This document shows positions 20,772-22,653 of a stretch of 64,000 bases of DNA, piece after piece. The stretch lies in the sequence record NC_005856.1, one strand, 5' to 3'. Below the pieces are notes generated by a model. The model worked only from the letters and a program-made list of their open reading frames with translations. It was not told the origin of the DNA and searched no databases. The position numbers were made by a program, and so were the translations under genes. This DNA is from Escherichia phage P1. Position 1 is the first letter of the stretch. The number at the start of each line of letters is the position of its first letter.

Positions 20772-20939
20772 TGAATTGCTCTAATTATAACCATGCATAC
20801 TTTCAACACCTCTAGTTTGCCATGAGGCAAACTCATAGGTGTCCTGGTAAGAGGACACTGTTGCCAAAACTGGACGCCCCATTATTGCAATTAATAAACA
20901 ACTAACGGACAATTCTACCTAACAATAAGTGGAGTTAAC

Positions 20940-21644
20940 ATGTTGAACCGAAGAACATTTAATGTATTCTGCGATGAATCCTGTCACCTACTAAATGATC
21001 ATAATAAAGTCATGGTATTGGGTGCGCTTTGGTGTCCCGGCACTATCACAAAAAAAATTGCTAGAGACATCAAGGAATTAAAATTAAAACACAATCTAAA
21101 ACCTGATTTCGAAATCAAGTGGACTAAAGTATCTGCGTCCAAAGTTGAATTTTACTTAGATGTCGTAGATTACTTCTTCAGCAACCCTGCATTGCGCTTT
21201 AGAGGTGTTGTTGTTCCTGATAAAGAGCAACTGGACCATGCTCGATTCCATCAAGATCATAATACTTTCTATTATAAGATGTTTTTTTATGTCTTAAAAA
21301 ACATAATAGAAAGTAACAACACATACAATATCTACCTAGATATAAAAGATACTTTAGGTATTGAAAAAATTGAGAAATTAAGAGGGGTTCTTCACAATGA
21401 TCGCTATGATTACAATCATGAGTCGATAAACAGAATTCAACATATACGATCTCATGAAGTGCAGCAATTGCAGCTAACGGATCTTTTCATTGGCGCGTTA
21501 GGCTACGTTCATCGAGGAATGAATAGCAACGCGGGAAAAATCCAAGTCATAAACAGAATAAAATCACATACAAACAGGGAGTTACTAAAAAGTACTCTTC
21601 CAACAGAAAGTAAATTTAATATTTTCGTGTGGGAGGCTCGCTGA
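20940..21644 (+). CDS. AT-rich accessory protein, possible DUF3800-like fold (P1 rlfA position)
   Basis: 234-aa ORF; N-terminal FCDESCHL motif resembling the DE-containing first strand of DUF3800-type proteins; markedly lower GC than flanks. Confidence 0.45.
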   Translation: MLNRRTFNVFCDESCHLLNDHNKVMVLGALWCPGTITKKIARDIKELKLKHNLKPDFEIKWTKVSASKVEFYLDVVDYFFSNPALRFRGVVVPDKEQLDHARFHQDHNTFYYKMFFYVLKNIIESNNTYNIYLDIKDTLGIEKIEKLRGVLHNDRYDYNHESINRIQHIRSHEVQQLQLTDLFIGALGYVHRGMNSNAGKIQVINRIKSHTNRELLKSTLPTESKFNIFVWEAR

Positions 21645-22108
21645 TGCTTCAAATGCCAGATTTATTGTACTTCAATGGAAGTTGGCAAGAGTATATAGAC
21701 GATGTATATGATGTTGTTAGAGAAGATATTTTAATATCTAATATAACGTTTAAGGGTCTCCCTGTTCGATTACGTTATTCACCGGAATATAATGGGAAAG
21801 AATTCGGATTTTGGCATTTAGTATCAGAGGGAAAAATAGAAGAAGAACGTATACCCGATCTTGAACGGTGCAAGCGAATTCGCTGGATCGCGCACATGAT
21901 AAGGAATTATAACCATTGCGATATATCATGTTGGTCTGAAAGACGAGGACCAACTGAAGAGTGGGTAATCTGGAATGAGTGTGAAAACTACGTTGTTGTG
22001 CTATCCGCACGTAGAGACTATTGGCTTCTCAAAACAGCCTATGTTGTAACCTATGACAGTAAAATCAGAACACTCAAACAAAGCAGAAAAAGAGCACTTG
22101 GGACATAA
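21644..22108 (+). CDS. translationally coupled partner protein (P1 rlfB position)
   Basis: Start ATG overlaps upstream stop by 1 nt (TGATG); ~154 aa; AT-rich; contains RIRWIAH (R-x5-H). Confidence 0.45.
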   Translation: MLQMPDLLYFNGSWQEYIDDVYDVVREDILISNITFKGLPVRLRYSPEYNGKEFGFWHLVSEGKIEEERIPDLERCKRIRWIAHMIRNYNHCDISCWSERRGPTEEWVIWNECENYVVVLSARRDYWLLKTAYVVTYDSKIRTLKQSRKRALGT

Positions 22109-22273
22109 AAAGCTGAACCCGACACATATTGCTATGTATCGGGTTCGATCGCTCTTTCTACACATGGTAGATGAGTAATGCAAATCTAACCGATCTACTT
22201 TAGCTTTTCAATAGCTAGCTATAACTTTCCGCACATATTCTTCTGATAATTCCGGGAGAGCGGTTGGGTTTTT

Positions 22274-22570
22274 TCATGCTTTTCTGCGCAGAGAAGCACA
22301 CTTATTCAGCAATAATAAGTGCAATTCTTTGTTATCACTAAGTATTTCTACACACCAATATCGTAACGTGTTCACTTCAAGTGTAGCCAGCACCTTATGT
22401 CGAAAAGCCCCCTCCCCTACACATAACGATGGCTGACATTCTGCTAAGGCACATAACCATGTATTGGCATCATAGAGAATCCAATAATGCTCCTCGGAAA
22501 TAGTTTTGCATCCAATTATTTCGAATCTTCGTTCTATCGTTTCAGGAGAGTATGAAAAATCAATTTCCAT
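22274..22570 (-). CDS. hypothetical protein (PmgF position)
   Basis: 98-aa ORF convergent with the AT-rich cassette. Confidence 0.4.
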   Translation of the reverse strand: MEIDFSYSPETIERRFEIIGCKTISEEHYWILYDANTWLCALAECQPSLCVGEGAFRHKVLATLEVNTLRYWCVEILSDNKELHLLLLNKCASLRRKA

Positions 22571-22653
22571 AATATGCTCAAAATTTCGCTATATTGACAT
22601 GATTTAAGCACAAAAAAGCTCCCGAAGGAGCTTTAAAATACAAGGGATGACTC

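What the first reader, a model, noticed from the sequence alone, without database searches (positions are those of the whole stretch)
20772..22650. AT-rich two-gene cassette after repL, with a possible nuclease-like first gene
The segment 20940-22108 is visibly AT-richer than the backbone on either side. Gene 1 (234 aa) begins with FCDESCHL, which resembles the conserved Asp-Glu first strand of DUF3800-type RNase-H-like proteins. Gene 2 is translationally coupled (TGATG overlap) and carries an R-x5-H motif (RIRWIAH) that is compatible with, but far from diagnostic of, a HEPN-type site. A small convergent gene (22274-22570) closes the island. It sits where P1 has the uncharacterised rlfA-rlfB genes, named only by position. 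Composition and coupling fit an accessory, possibly defence or exclusion, module.
Basis: partly seen in the sequence, partly recalled or inferred. Interest (0 to 1): 0.55.

Follow-up and report, generated by a model that had tools for sequence, protein, structure and literature searches.

The report
P1 rlfAB cassette hides an sRNA
The flagged stretch is phage P1's own rlfA-rlfB-pmgF cassette, a swappable island whose two coupled proteins (an RNase H-like DUF3800 protein and a small RNase-toxin-like protein) turn out to travel everywhere with a previously unannotated ~70-nt small RNA gene, making it a likely three-part RNA-level defence/toxin-antitoxin module that can be tested directly in E. 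coli.

Summary
The window is phage P1 (100% identical). The finding is P1's rlfA (20940-21644), rlfB (21644-22108) and pmgF (22274-22570). All sequence observations hold: AT-rich island (GC 0.374 vs 0.472), TGATG coupling, DE motif. RlfA is a true DUF3800 protein with an RNase H2-like fold. RlfB is not HEPN: the motif's His is not conserved and the fold is alpha+beta. It weakly resembles RelE/colicin-D (BECR) RNases. Both match PADLOC's untested candidate PDC-M04. The pair is invariably adjacent across many phyla, often between hsdS and hsdR of Type I R-M operons. In P1-like plasmids the slot is a sharply bounded swappable cassette (20786-22611), present in about 14%; others carry hok or other genes. 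New: immediately 3' of rlfB lies a conserved structured element (22106-22178) found in every RlfAB locus. It has strong covariation, G-U asymmetry pointing to the opposite strand, its own promoter (22211-22183) and a terminator. It is a convergent ~70-nt sRNA gene, not annotated in P1 and absent from Rfam. Orphan copies occur in lytic phages among tRNA/Ro60/CCA-enzyme genes. Best model: a tripartite RNA-targeting toxin-antitoxin/abortive-infection module with the sRNA as inhibitor. The function is untested.

The parts
20775..20791 (.). C1 repressor operator Orlf/Op55, just after the repL stop. The left edge of the swappable cassette falls inside it, at 20785/20786.
   Evidence: Annotated in AF234173.1. 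Alignment of P1 with four P1-like elements carrying other cassettes loses homology right after ATTGCTCTAAT.
20885..20913 (+). Predicted sigma-70 promoter PrlfA.
   Evidence: Annotation of AF234173.1 only. My consensus scan did not list it.
20940..21644 (+). rlfA: 234-aa DUF3800 protein with an RNase H2-like fold. Conserved residues are D12 E13 ... D134 D137 ... Q178 D181.
21644..22108 (+). rlfB: 154-aa partner protein. Its start overlaps the rlfA stop (TGATG). Candidate BECR/RelE-colicin D-like RNase fold. Invariant residues are F56 W57 H58 R69 D72 R75 C76 R78 W81 R123.
   Evidence: PDC-M04B, E 1.3e-51; pLDDT 92.
22108..22176 (-). Unannotated convergent small RNA gene of about 70 nt, with approximate ends. 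The covariance-model hit spans 22106-22178.
   Evidence: No feature is annotated here in P1 records. No Rfam family matches.
22152..22175 (-). sRNA 5' hairpin P2: CUC / A / UCUAC - CAUGU - GUAGA / AG / GAG on the RNA strand. It is nearly invariant across phyla.
   Evidence: Covariation in 5 of 8 pairs in the first alignment, e.g. C-G to U-A at the outer pair in 5 sequences, and UCUAC/GUAGA to UCCAC/GUGGA or UCCGC/GCGGA.
22115..22146 (-). sRNA 3' hairpin P1. On the minus strand it is followed by a U-run (templated by A22107-22111), so it acts as an intrinsic terminator abutting the rlfB stop codon.
   Evidence: The terminator scan lists it on the minus strand. Six of 7 pairs covary. It forms a perfect 14-bp stem on the minus strand.
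22183..22211 (-). Sigma-70-like promoter of the sRNA: -35 TTGAAA, 17 nt, -10 TAGATT. It predicts a start near 22176.
   Evidence: A promoter in the same register is found in 47% of 81 distinct loci (>=9/12 matches) against 2.5% of shuffles, and a TTGAC-like -35 is visible at the same place in nearly all.
22274..22570 (-). pmgF: 98-aa ORF inside the cassette but not part of the conserved module.
   Evidence: It is never found next to RlfAB outside P1-like elements. Its N-terminal 65 aa are 43% identical to the N-terminus of a 198-aa protein that fills the slot in other P1-like plasmids. It is non-essential (PMC10695390).
22612..22634 (-). Terminator hairpin of the late bplB operon. It marks the right edge of the swappable cassette.
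   Evidence: homology among P1-like elements resumes exactly at AAAAAAGCTCCCGAAGGAGCTTT.

Best explanation
P1's rlfA, rlfB and a previously unannotated convergent ~70-nt sRNA form one horizontally mobile three-part module. It is the family PADLOC lists as candidate PDC-M04.

The most likely function is an RNA-level toxin-antitoxin-like abortive-infection or exclusion system, not a replication function.

- Shown: RlfA is an RNase H2-like DUF3800 enzyme with an intact carboxylate set. RlfB is a small, co-translated partner.
- Inferred, moderate support: RlfB has a BECR (RelE/colicin D-type) endoribonuclease fold and is the RNA-cutting effector.
- Shown in silico: the sRNA is made from the opposite strand, from its own promoter, and ends at a terminator that abuts the rlfB stop.
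- Inferred: the sRNA is the cognate RNA ligand that keeps the proteins inactive, i.e. an antitoxin-like inhibitor. Infection or loss of the cassette would relieve this inhibition and let the nuclease(s) cut cellular or phage RNA, perhaps tRNA.
- Inferred: orphan copies of the sRNA carried by lytic phages would then be anti-defence decoys.

In other bacteria the module often sits between hsdS and hsdR of Type I restriction operons, the place PrrC occupies. This suggests a back-up role when restriction fails.
For: Identity and accessory nature:
- 100% identity to P1.
- Low GC.
- The cassette has sharp edges and is present in 98 of 680 P1-like plasmids. The others hold hokD or other genes.
- It is non-essential for P1 (PMC10695390).

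Proteins:
- Independently, the top Pfam families among 80 homologues are PBECR2/PBECR3, E 0.005-0.01.
- RlfB has invariant His and Arg residues.

Linkage:
- An RlfA homologue lies immediately upstream of RlfB in 79 of 80 loci; the single exception is cut by a contig end.
- Start/stop overlap occurs in 60 of 76.
- The reciprocal holds in 3 of 3 RlfA-first look-ups.

Defence context:
- PADLOC PDC-M04A/B.
- The nearest upstream ORF is HsdS in 23-24 of 71 loci; the nearest downstream is HsdR in 16 of 70.
- 35 of 79 loci have same-strand Type I genes, 12 with the full M-S-[AB]-R order.
- Other contexts: a P4-like satellite, a lambdoid prophage, integrative elements, and a locus with a pAgo neighbour.

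sRNA:
- One covariance-model hit per RlfAB locus in 1.27 Mb, and none elsewhere.
- 92.9% of cells are paired against 33-50% when slid. 11 of 15 pairs have compensatory changes. Covariation exceeds all 500 shuffles.
- This is replicated on 92 sequences not used for the model.
- G-U wobbles: 57 vs 5 and 68 vs 4 in favour of the strand opposite rlfAB.
- Promoter and terminator in register.
- Fold z-score -6.3.
- RNA-first search: 53 of 74 metagenome contigs with the 24-mer have RlfB next to it.

Decoy idea:
- 15 of 16 viral contigs carry the full sRNA without RlfAB.
- In Rhizobium phage RHph_TM30 it lies in a tRNA/YrlA-like/TROVE array. In Vibrio phage 1.084.O it lies next to a tRNA and near a CCA-enzyme gene.

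Lead: a DUF3800 gene scores essential in Legionella Tn-seq, as antitoxins do, while the next two genes do not (PMC7811196).
Against: - No experiment shows toxicity, RNA cleavage or phage resistance. PDC-M04 is explicitly untested.
- RlfA is more conserved than RlfB: 62% vs 37-49% mean column identity, and 2 vs 13 PADLOC models. It keeps a catalytic-looking site. So RlfA could be the effector and RlfB the regulator.
- The sRNA's transcription, ends and binding partner are predictions only.
- A C1 operator lies upstream, and rlfA/B are induced early in lytic growth. The proteins may therefore be silent in lysogens, which fits a lytic-phase role better than classical prophage-encoded host defence.
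- I could not show that the Legionella DUF3800 gene belongs to the RlfA subfamily.
- Orphan sRNAs in phages could mean the RNA has a general role unrelated to RlfAB.
Confidence: 0.45

Rival explanations
1. Same three-part module, opposite polarity. RlfA, the RNase H2-like enzyme, is the effector nuclease. It would act, for example, on RNA:DNA hybrids, or on RNA using or sensing the sRNA. RlfB together with the sRNA is the sensor, specificity or inhibitory subunit rather than the toxin.
For: - RlfA is the more conserved partner and keeps an invariant DE...D...QxxD set.
- It has strong RNase H2/H3 and PIWI-domain fold matches.
- RlfB is far more diverse: 13 PADLOC models against 2.
- DUF3800 domains serve as the associated or fused module in type VII retrons and next to Cas12a2/a3 (PMC7736814, PMC10910872, PMC13594972).
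- Eleven other structured RNA motifs are linked to DUF3800 genes (PMC5737381). This suggests a general DUF3800-RNA partnership.
Against: - RlfB has its own invariant His/Arg cluster and toxin-like fold matches.
- A DUF3800 gene behaves as essential, that is protective, in Legionella Tn-seq.
- In one E. coli genome rlfB is frameshifted while rlfA is intact. That is what loss of a toxin looks like, but it is a single case.
Confidence: 0.22
2. A plasmid-addiction or competition module serving P1 itself rather than defending the host. It would work by post-segregational killing, or by excluding competing P1-like elements, with the unstable sRNA as antidote.
For: - The slot alternatively holds hok/Hok-Gef type I toxin-antitoxin genes in many P1-like plasmids.
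- P1 is a low-copy plasmid prophage.
- The convergent sRNA overlapping a gene's 3' end resembles some type I systems (txpA/RatA, bsrG/SR4, from memory).
Against: - Most family members are chromosomal and embedded in restriction operons or defence-type islands, not on plasmids.
- P1 already carries phd-doc.
- The extreme sequence conservation of the sRNA is not needed for simple antisense control.
Confidence: 0.15
3. The conserved element is not a separate RNA gene. It would be a cis-acting feature: a bidirectional terminator, a 3'-UTR stabiliser, or a DNA site used for cassette mobility.
For: - It abuts the rlfB stop.
- P1 is a terminator-like hairpin.
- In operon contexts it lies on the mRNA between rlfB and hsdR.
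- The cassette is mobile.
Against: - The 24-nt P2 region is nearly invariant across phyla, while terminators and UTRs drift.
- The G-U asymmetry points to the antisense strand.
- A promoter is conserved in register.
- Free-standing copies exist in lytic phages within RNA-gene arrays on the RNA's own strand.
- There is no matching element at the 5' end of the cassette.
- The sequence does not fit attC or dif-type sites (read from the sequence).
Confidence: 0.08
4. The original annotation is right. rlfA/rlfB are 'replication-linked functions' that help lytic replication from oriL, for example RNase H-like processing of an R-loop or primer.
For: - The genes are adjacent to repL/oriL.
- A C1 operator lies upstream, and the genes are expressed early together with repL.
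- RlfA has an RNase H-like fold.
Against: - The genes are absent from about 86% of P1-like plasmids that keep repL.
- They are non-essential by CRISPRi.
- No RepL, KilA or BplB homologue occurs in any of 80 loci from other species.
- Low GC marks foreign origin.
Confidence: 0.04

Closest known systems
PADLOC phage-defence candidate PDC-M04 (Payne et al., 'guilt-by-embedding'; bioRxiv 10.1101/2024.01.29.577857)
   Same: Both P1 proteins match its two models (E 1e-95 and 1.3e-51). The genes are adjacent and on the same strand. The family is often embedded in Type I R-M operons, which I found independently.
   Different: PDC-M04 is a two-gene, untested prediction with no mechanism. The sRNA component, the fold assignments and the link to P1 rlfA/rlfB appear in none of the papers I could search (a search for 'PDC-M04' returned none).
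PrrC anticodon nuclease in the EcoprrI Type I R-M locus (from memory: prrC lies between hsdS and hsdR, is kept latent by the R-M proteins and activated by the T4 Stp peptide)
   Same: Same genomic niche, between hsdS and hsdR, in many family members. Possible RNA/tRNA-cutting effector. Lytic phages carry tRNA and RNA-repair genes near their orphan sRNA copies.
   Different: There is no ABC-ATPase or PrrC nuclease domain. There are two proteins plus an RNA. P1's copy is not next to a Type I system.
Type III toxin-antitoxin systems (ToxIN, CptIN, TenpIN), and phage PhiTE's pseudo-ToxI escape (from memory, Blower et al. 2012)
   Same: A protein endoribonuclease candidate is paired with a dedicated, sequence-conserved small RNA. 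Phages carry look-alike RNAs without the toxin.
   Different: The RNA is single-copy, convergent and downstream, not a tandem repeat array upstream of the toxin. RlfB is unrelated to ToxN/AbiQ. A third component, DUF3800, is obligatory.
RelE/ParE-type and colicin D / CdiA-CT BECR-fold RNase toxins; Pfam PBECR2/PBECR3
   Same: These are the best structural matches of RlfB's C-terminal two helices, four-strand sheet and final helix. RlfB has conserved His and Arg residues and a small size.
   Different: Scores are marginal. An extra N-terminal helix-strand unit is present. There is no small DNA-binding protein antitoxin. The partner is a 234-aa enzyme-like protein.
DUF3800 in type VII retrons and TPR-DUF3800 next to Cas12a2/Cas12a3; DUF3800-I to -XI RNA motifs (Weinberg 2017)
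   Same: Same protein domain, with an RNase H-like fold and DE/QxxD motifs, appearing as an accessory of immune systems. DUF3800 genes recurrently pair with structured RNAs that often end in terminators.
   Different: There is no reverse transcriptase or Cas protein in P1. RlfA keeps the Q that the retron DUF3800 lacks. No Rfam family matched this RNA at permissive thresholds; I confirmed only DUF3800-I and -IX as Rfam members.

Membership tests
DUF3800 (Pfam PF12686) | Pfam model matched above its gathering score | tested here: met
   54.2 bits against a cut-off of 21, E 3.5e-14, residues 8-189 over profile positions 1-148 of 149.
DUF3800 (Pfam PF12686) | N-terminal DE motif and C-terminal QxxD motif (as described in PMC7736814) | tested here: met
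   D12, E13, Q178 and D181 are invariant in 37 homologues.
DUF3800 (Pfam PF12686) | RNase H-like fold | tested here: met
PADLOC PDC-M04 candidate system | Both component models matched, with the genes adjacent on one strand | tested here: met
   PDC-M04A E 1e-95; PDC-M04B E 1.3e-51. The genes overlap by 1 nt.
PADLOC PDC-M04 candidate system | Found embedded in BREX, DISARM or Type I R-M systems (the basis of the candidate list) | tested here: met
   At family level, 35 of 79 loci have same-strand Type I genes, 12 with the full hsdM-hsdS-[AB]-hsdR order. The P1 copy itself is not embedded.
PADLOC PDC-M04 candidate system | Protects against phage | not testable with these tools
   The authors list the PDC systems as untested.
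HEPN RNases | Conserved Rx4-6H motif | tested here: not met
   R78 is invariant, but H84 is H, W, A, F or P among 25 homologues.
HEPN RNases | All-alpha helical-bundle fold, or a match to a HEPN family | tested here: not met
BECR-fold RNase toxins (RelE/ParE, colicin D/E5, PBECR) | Fold match to family members | tested here: inconclusive
BECR-fold RNase toxins (RelE/ParE, colicin D/E5, PBECR) | Sequence-profile match | tested here: inconclusive
   PBECR2 in 2 members and PBECR3 in 1 member of 80, best E 0.01 and 0.0045, both below threshold. No PDB sequence match.
Type II toxin-antitoxin systems | Small labile protein antitoxin, usually with a DNA-binding domain | tested here: not met
   The partner is a 234-aa enzyme-like DUF3800 protein with no DNA-binding domain hit.
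Type III toxin-antitoxin systems | Tandem-repeat RNA antitoxin gene upstream of the toxin gene, separated by a terminator | tested here: not met
   There is a single copy, downstream and convergent. One locus of 92 (L076) gave two hits.
Type III toxin-antitoxin systems | The RNA binds and inhibits the protein toxin | not testable with these tools
   Inferred only from linkage and from orphan copies in phages.
Type I toxin-antitoxin systems | Small hydrophobic peptide toxin controlled by an overlapping antisense RNA | tested here: not met
   The sRNA terminator abuts or overlaps the rlfB 3' end. But RlfB is a 154-aa soluble-looking alpha+beta protein.
PrrC/RloC anticodon nucleases | ABC-ATPase domain plus C-terminal nuclease domain | tested here: not met
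   No such Pfam or PADLOC match. Only the genomic position between hsdS and hsdR is shared.
Rfam RNA families, including DUF3800-I and DUF3800-IX | Covariance-model match | tested here: not met
   No family matches the element in P1 (E<=10), in five typical loci (E<=1) or in phage copies (E<=0.1). I could not confirm that all of DUF3800-II to -XI are in Rfam.
Type VII retrons (RT + DUF3800) | Reverse transcriptase and msr/msd RNA next to the DUF3800 gene | tested here: not met
   There is no RT in the P1 cassette. An RVT_1 gene precedes the pair in one Bacteroidota locus only.

The most novel reading that the evidence does not exclude
The rlfAB-sRNA cassette is the founding, genetically tractable example of a new tripartite immune/toxin system. 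A dedicated, phylum-spanning small RNA restrains a DUF3800 RNase H-like enzyme and a BECR-type RNase. Lytic phages have captured free-standing copies of that RNA, placed among their tRNA, Ro60/Y-RNA and CCA-enzyme genes, as anti-defence decoys. This would also give the first functional handle on why DUF3800 genes are so often paired with structured RNAs.
Probability: 0.3. Interest if true: 0.85.

Novelty: new variant of a known kind. Interest (0 to 1): 0.7.

Why it matters
- P1 is one of the best-studied phages, yet rlfA/rlfB have carried a name based only on position since the genome was annotated. The sRNA gene next to them is not annotated at all.
- DUF3800 is a large family of unknown function. 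It recurs beside retrons, Cas12a2/a3 and many orphan structured RNAs.
- The RlfAB-sRNA module is found in at least 477 bacterial species genomes, in 1,791 clusters at 50% identity, and in 121 of 5,426 complete E. coli genomes.
- A native E. coli/P1 representative with a defined RNA partner makes the biochemistry of this family directly testable.
- If the decoy reading holds, it adds a natural case of phage RNA mimicry against an RNA-controlled defence.
- Practically, P1 and P1-derived tools, and the many P1-like resistance plasmids, differ in whether they carry this cassette. That could affect phage-host and plasmid-phage interactions.

Tried and rejected
- HEPN reading of RlfB: rejected. The motif's His is not conserved, the fold is alpha+beta, and there are no HEPN matches.
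- pmgF as part of the module: rejected. It never co-occurs outside P1-like elements.
- Replication-linked function: very unlikely. The slot is variable, the genes are non-essential, and no RepL occurs elsewhere.
- Known RNA family for the element: none found in three Rfam scans.
- Sequence matches of either protein to solved structures: none. NCBIfam: none.
- A conserved element upstream of rlfA, which would suggest a two-ended mobile unit: none.
- A second copy or trans target of the sRNA in the 64-kb window: none. The only other model hit (971-1025, E 0.31) lies inside the cin ORF and is chance.
- Domain fusions of RlfB that could hint at function: essentially none among the top 150 of 1,791 relatives. 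Two are longer, at 223 and 255 aa, and I did not pursue them.
- Plus-strand 3'-UTR structure: disfavoured by the 57:5 and 68:4 G-U asymmetry.
- tRNA-like or integron attC-like nature of the element: I considered this from the sequence and found no fit.
- Reading the bioRxiv paper 'A tRNA-derived second messenger...', which mentions DUF3800: the paper is not held.
- Weinberg 2017 supplementary motif files: not held.
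Full report
**1. What the region is**

The window is bacteriophage P1. Window 20600-22700 is 100% identical to AF234173.1 51400-53500 (window = record minus 30800) and 97% identical to P7. The three ORFs of the finding are P1's annotated genes:
- rlfA: 20940-21644, 234 aa
- rlfB: 21644-22108, 154 aa
- pmgF: 22274-22570, minus strand, 98 aa

[quoted passage not shown] It also places a C1 operator (Orlf/Op55, window 20775-20791) right after the repL stop, and a predicted promoter PrlfA at 20885-20913.

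**2. Check of the observation**

- The ORFs, the TGATG stop/start overlap and the Shine-Dalgarno sequences are present.
- The island is AT-rich beyond chance. GC is 0.374 for 20786-22611 against 0.472 +/- 0.029 for same-sized windows. Only 1.3% of windows are as low, and GC3 is 0.32-0.35 against 0.44-0.52 in the flanking genes.
- The DE of FCDESCHL is invariant in homologues.
- RIRWIAH exists, but its His is not conserved.

**3. The two proteins**

RlfA is a genuine DUF3800 protein.
- Pfam gives 54.2 bits against a cut-off of 21.
- It carries the family's DE and QxxD motifs, plus invariant D134/D137.
- This agrees with published fold assignments for DUF3800 (PMC7736814, PMC10910872).

RlfB has no Pfam, NCBIfam or PDB sequence match.
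- Its model is confident (pLDDT 92.3). It consists of an N-terminal helix and strand, two helices, a four-stranded antiparallel sheet and a C-terminal helix.
- That topology and the variable His rule out HEPN.
- Foldseek finds nothing significant, although HigB1 and colicin D reappear weakly.
- Independently, when 80 homologues are scanned one by one against Pfam at E<=1, the families hit by most members are PBECR2 and PBECR3, 'phage BECR-like nucleases' (E 0.01 and 0.0045).
- Invariant residues in 80 homologues are P47, F56, W57, H58, R69, D72, R75, C76, R78, W81 and R123. A His/Arg set of this kind is typical of metal-independent RNases.
- I treat 'BECR-type RNase' as a moderately supported inference, not a result.

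Both proteins hit PADLOC's candidate system PDC-M04 (A: 1e-95; B: 1.3e-51). The PDC list was derived by 'guilt-by-embedding' in BREX, DISARM and Type I R-M loci and is explicitly untested (bioRxiv 10.1101/2024.01.29.577857).

**4. The pair is an obligate, widely spread operon**

- RlfB relatives occur in 477 species-representative genomes across Pseudomonadota, Nitrospirota, Planctomycetota, Chloroflexota, Saccharibacteria, Cyanobacteria, Acidobacteriota, Verrucomicrobiota and others. They form 1,791 clusters at 50% identity, nearly all 150-190 aa single-domain proteins.
- In 79 of 80 retrieved loci an RlfA homologue lies immediately upstream on the same strand. The one exception is cut by a contig end.
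- In 60 of 76 loci the stop and start overlap, mostly as ATGA or TGATG.
- Starting from RlfA homologues instead, all three look-ups again show a ~155-170-aa partner gene downstream.
- pmgF never accompanies the pair. No RepL, KilA or BplB homologue is present in any of these loci.

**5. Genomic context points to conflict systems**

Using naive ORF calls:
- The nearest upstream gene is a Type I specificity subunit in 23-24 of 71 loci.
- The nearest downstream gene is a Type I restriction subunit in 16 of 70 (Pfam and PADLOC).
- With phmmer seeds, 35 of 79 loci have same-strand Type I genes next to the pair, and 12 show the complete order hsdM-hsdS-[rlfA-rlfB]-hsdR.
- That position is the one occupied by prrC in the EcoprrI locus (from memory).

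Other contexts:
- a P4-like satellite cargo region, and a RhuM-...-SymE island in Citrobacter
- an integrase-flanked mobilisable element next to guaA in E. coli
- an hsdMS-RT-[pair]-hsdR-...-Piwi locus in Algoriphagus
- the replication-to-antiterminator (Q) region of a lambdoid prophage in Serratia, on the opposite strand to its neighbours

**6. In P1-like elements the slot is a swappable cassette**

- Of 680 plasmid records matching the repL/bplB flanks, only 98 carry the whole island.
- Homology among P1-like elements stops inside Op55, after ATTGCTCTAAT (window 20785). It resumes exactly at the bplB terminator hairpin at 22612.
- Alternatives in the slot include:
  - an 81-aa ORF plus hokD/mokW (Hok/Gef, E 2.4e-22)
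  - the 81-aa ORF plus a 198-aa protein
  - IS605- or IS421-containing versions
- Published comparisons already list rlfA-rlfB-pmgF as a low-GC variable region (PMC9603915, PMC6906374).
- CRISPRi scored all three genes non-essential (PMC10695390).
- In complete E. coli genomes the pair occurs in 121 of 5,426 genomes, at 123 plasmid and 5 chromosomal places.

**7. A third, unannotated component: a conserved small RNA gene**

While comparing an E. coli chromosomal homologue I noticed that the ~70 nt after the rlfB stop are better conserved than the genes themselves.

*Conservation and linkage*
- BLAST with window 22106-22275 finds 84-91% identity over 70 nt in loci whose RlfB is only 48-66% identical. 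A 20-26-nt core is 92-100% identical in about 45 loci from distant phyla.
- A simple pattern finds the element within 135 nt of the RlfB stop in 87 of 91 loci. The misses are a contig end, a frameshifted copy, one loop variant and one the pattern missed; the model later found all four.
- The consensus on the rlfAB strand is: AAAArGCTGA - hairpin P1 - CGnATG - CTCCTTC TAC ACATG GTA GATGAG.

*Covariation*
- On a MAFFT alignment of 71 distinct sequences, my two-helix structure has 92.9% of cells paired, against 33-50% when partners are slid.
- 11 of 15 pairs have changes on both sides.
- There are 100 compensatory cells against 18.8 +/- 3.6 in shuffles (0 of 500).
- The covariation score is 0.289 against 0.111 (0 of 500).
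- RNAalifold recovers both helices unaided.

*Covariance-model searches*
- A model built from the alignment finds one hit in the 64-kb window, at 22106-22178 (72.4 bits, E 1.6e-20).
- It finds one hit per RlfAB locus in 1.27 Mb of flanking DNA, including loci left out of the seed (one locus, L076, gave two). It finds none in P1-like loci with other cassettes.
- On 92 further sequences, found by a 24-mer scan and never used for the model, helix P1 again shows 6 of 7 covarying pairs. That alignment is model-fitted, and P2 is fixed by the selection.

*Strand and transcription signals*
- Of the non-Watson-Crick cells, 57 are A-C/C-A on the rlfAB strand, which are G-U wobbles on the other strand. 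Only 5 are G-U on the rlfAB strand.
- In the independent set the counts are 68 against 4 (binomial p about 5e-16, not corrected for relatedness). The RNA is therefore made from the strand opposite to rlfAB.
- On that strand P1 is followed by a U-run. The terminator scan lists it at 22146-22115.
- A sigma-70-like promoter lies at a fixed distance upstream. In P1 it is -35 TTGAAA (22211-22206), 17 nt, -10 TAGATT (22188-22183), predicting a start near 22176.
- Across 81 distinct loci, 47% have at least 9 of 12 promoter matches in that register against 2.5% of shuffles. A TTGAC-like -35 is visible in nearly all.
- The P1 RNA (22177 to 22107, minus strand) folds at -29.7 kcal/mol, z = -6.3.

*Status*
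- No feature is annotated there in the P1 or P7 records.
- No Rfam 15 family matches it in P1, in five typical loci or in phage copies. Rfam 15 includes at least DUF3800-I and -IX.
- Weinberg et al. reported eleven unrelated structured RNAs next to DUF3800 genes, several ending in terminators (PMC5737381). This looks like a further, protein-pair-specific member of that phenomenon.

**8. RNA-first searches**

- The 24-mer CTCCTTCTACACATGGTAGATGAG (P1 has one difference) occurs in at least 120 metagenome contigs.
- Of 74 with enough flank, 53 (72%) have an RlfB homologue ending just before it, and 21 do not.
- In IMG/VR, all 16 viral contigs with the 24-mer carry the full motif, but only one has RlfAB.
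- The others are real phage contigs, with terminase, T4-like and P22-like portals, HNH and DnaB genes. Their genes are mostly co-oriented with the RNA.

Among cultured phages the motif is found in:
- P1 and P7.
- Bifidobacterium phage Bbif-1, which has an annotated 'RlfA' gene just upstream.
- The ~207-kb Rhizobium phages of the RHph_TM30 group. In RHph_TM30 the motif lies in an RNA-gene array on one strand: tRNA-Leu, two sub-threshold YrlA (Y-RNA-like) hits, the motif, a tRNA-like hit, then a TROVE/Ro60 gene.
- Vibrio phage 1.084.O, where it lies next to a tRNA and near a COG0617 (CCA-adding enzyme class) gene.

**9. Most likely mechanism**

*Shown*
- The module is a mobile, accessory, tightly linked trio: an RNase H2-like DUF3800 enzyme, a small co-translated partner, and a convergent sRNA with extreme sequence conservation.
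- It has a strong association with restriction operons and mobile-element cargo regions.

*Inferred*
- It is a toxin-antitoxin-like abortive-infection or exclusion system acting on RNA. RlfB is the likely RNase effector. RlfA is a nuclease, sensor or co-regulator. The sRNA is the inhibitor.
- The conservation of the sRNA far exceeds what antisense pairing needs, which argues for sequence-specific protein binding, as in type III systems.
- Orphan copies in lytic phages, placed among tRNA and RNA-repair genes, fit capture of an antitoxin RNA as a decoy. The precedent from memory is PhiTE pseudo-ToxI against ToxIN. They also fit a conflict fought over tRNA/RNA integrity.
- A further precedent from memory is the RnlA toxin, whose activity is stimulated by RNase HI.

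*Open*
- Polarity is unsettled. RlfA is the more conserved protein, and PADLOC needs 13 models for B against 2 for A. So RlfA may be the effector.
- Weak pointers the other way: a DUF3800 gene scored essential in Legionella Tn-seq while its two downstream neighbours did not (PMC7811196). One E. coli genome has a 7-nt duplication frameshifting rlfB with rlfA intact.
- In P1 the upstream C1 operator and early lytic induction leave open whether the proteins act in lysogens or during lytic growth.

**10. Comparison with known systems and novelty**

- The pair is a member of PADLOC's PDC-M04 candidate family, and RlfA is a member of DUF3800.
- The module is not HEPN, not PrrC, and not a type I, II or III toxin-antitoxin system by their defining features (see the membership table).
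- What appears new:
  - the sRNA gene in P1 and its universal linkage to the pair
  - the evidence for which strand encodes it
  - the BECR-like reading of RlfB
  - the precise cassette boundaries
  - the orphan phage copies
- I found no paper describing these. A search for 'PDC-M04' returned none, and the few papers naming rlfA/rlfB in P1 treat them as uncharacterised.
- I rate it a new variant of a known kind (an RNA-controlled toxin/defence module) rather than categorically new, because no function has been shown.

**11. Verdict**

Interest is 0.7. The proteins alone would be a routine 'known candidate in a known phage'. The conserved sRNA, its phage-borne orphans and the tractability of P1/E. 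coli make an old unknown directly testable.

Noticed in passing
window 22274-22570 (pmgF); L085 1151-1747; L083 2149-2664: PmgF's first 65 residues are 43% identical to the N-terminus of a 198-aa protein that occupies the same slot and orientation in other P1-like plasmids. That protein has a marginal GNAT acetyltransferase hit (E 0.05). PmgF may be a truncated or recombined relative. The name 'putative morphogenetic function' rests on position only.
   Followed up: partly
L086 1150-1305; L082 2150-2305; L087 4422-4577: Many P1-like plasmids carry a hokD/mokW (Hok/Gef) type I toxin gene, plus an 81-aa small ORF, in place of rlfAB-pmgF. The repL-bplB slot therefore alternates between different toxin-type cargos.
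   Followed up: partly
L095/L096 2183-12708 (Algoriphagus pacificus and a JGI metagenome): One operon-like array reads HsdM/S - reverse transcriptase (RVT_1, 502 aa) - DUF3800 - RlfB-like - HsdR - 325-aa ORF - Piwi-domain protein. An RT lies directly upstream of the RlfAB pair, and a pAgo downstream.
   Followed up: no
L094 6699-7179 (E. coli GCA_021857405.1), compared with L093: A 7-nt duplication (AAGAAAA) in an A-rich tract frameshifts the rlfB homologue (109 aa) while rlfA and the sRNA remain intact. This could be natural inactivation of a toxin or an assembly error.
   Followed up: partly
proteins P0002, P0007, P0008, P0010, P0016; hits H28, H84: NCBI names many RlfB homologues 'oxidoreductase'. 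Nothing in sequence, profile or predicted fold supports that name. It looks like a propagated misannotation.
   Followed up: no
L114 2364-2898 (Rhizobium phage RHph_TM30, record about 139.4-140.0 kb): An unannotated 1.2-kb gap upstream of the phage's TROVE/Ro60 gene holds a tRNA-like hit, two sub-threshold YrlA (Y-RNA-like) hits and one or two copies of the rlf-type sRNA, all on one strand.
   Followed up: partly
L076 10449-10594; L023, L027, L035, L059, L061: Variants of the sRNA exist with a 15-20-nt insertion in the P2 loop (e.g. ...CACGCTGACACCCTTGCGGGATGGTGG...). One locus has two tandem partial copies.
   Followed up: no
window about 15150-17900: This is the only other stretch of the window as AT-rich as the rlf island: same-sized 1.8-kb windows starting at 15151-16101 are as low in GC. 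Published comparisons list the simABC region of P1 as another low-GC variable region. I did not check what lies here.
   Followed up: no
window 22152-22160 (+ strand CTCTTTCTA; consensus CTCCTTC): The invariant part of the element reads like an anti-Shine-Dalgarno (CUCCUU) on the rlfAB strand and like a Shine-Dalgarno (GAAGGAG) in the sRNA, partly buried in P2. I could not tell whether this matters, for example through ribosome or RBS mimicry.
   Followed up: no
window 971-1025: A weak covariance-model hit (9.9 bits, E 0.31) resembles the 5' half of the motif. It lies inside the 186-aa ORF 860-1420, which I take to be the cin invertase gene from its sequence. I judge it a chance match.
   Followed up: yes
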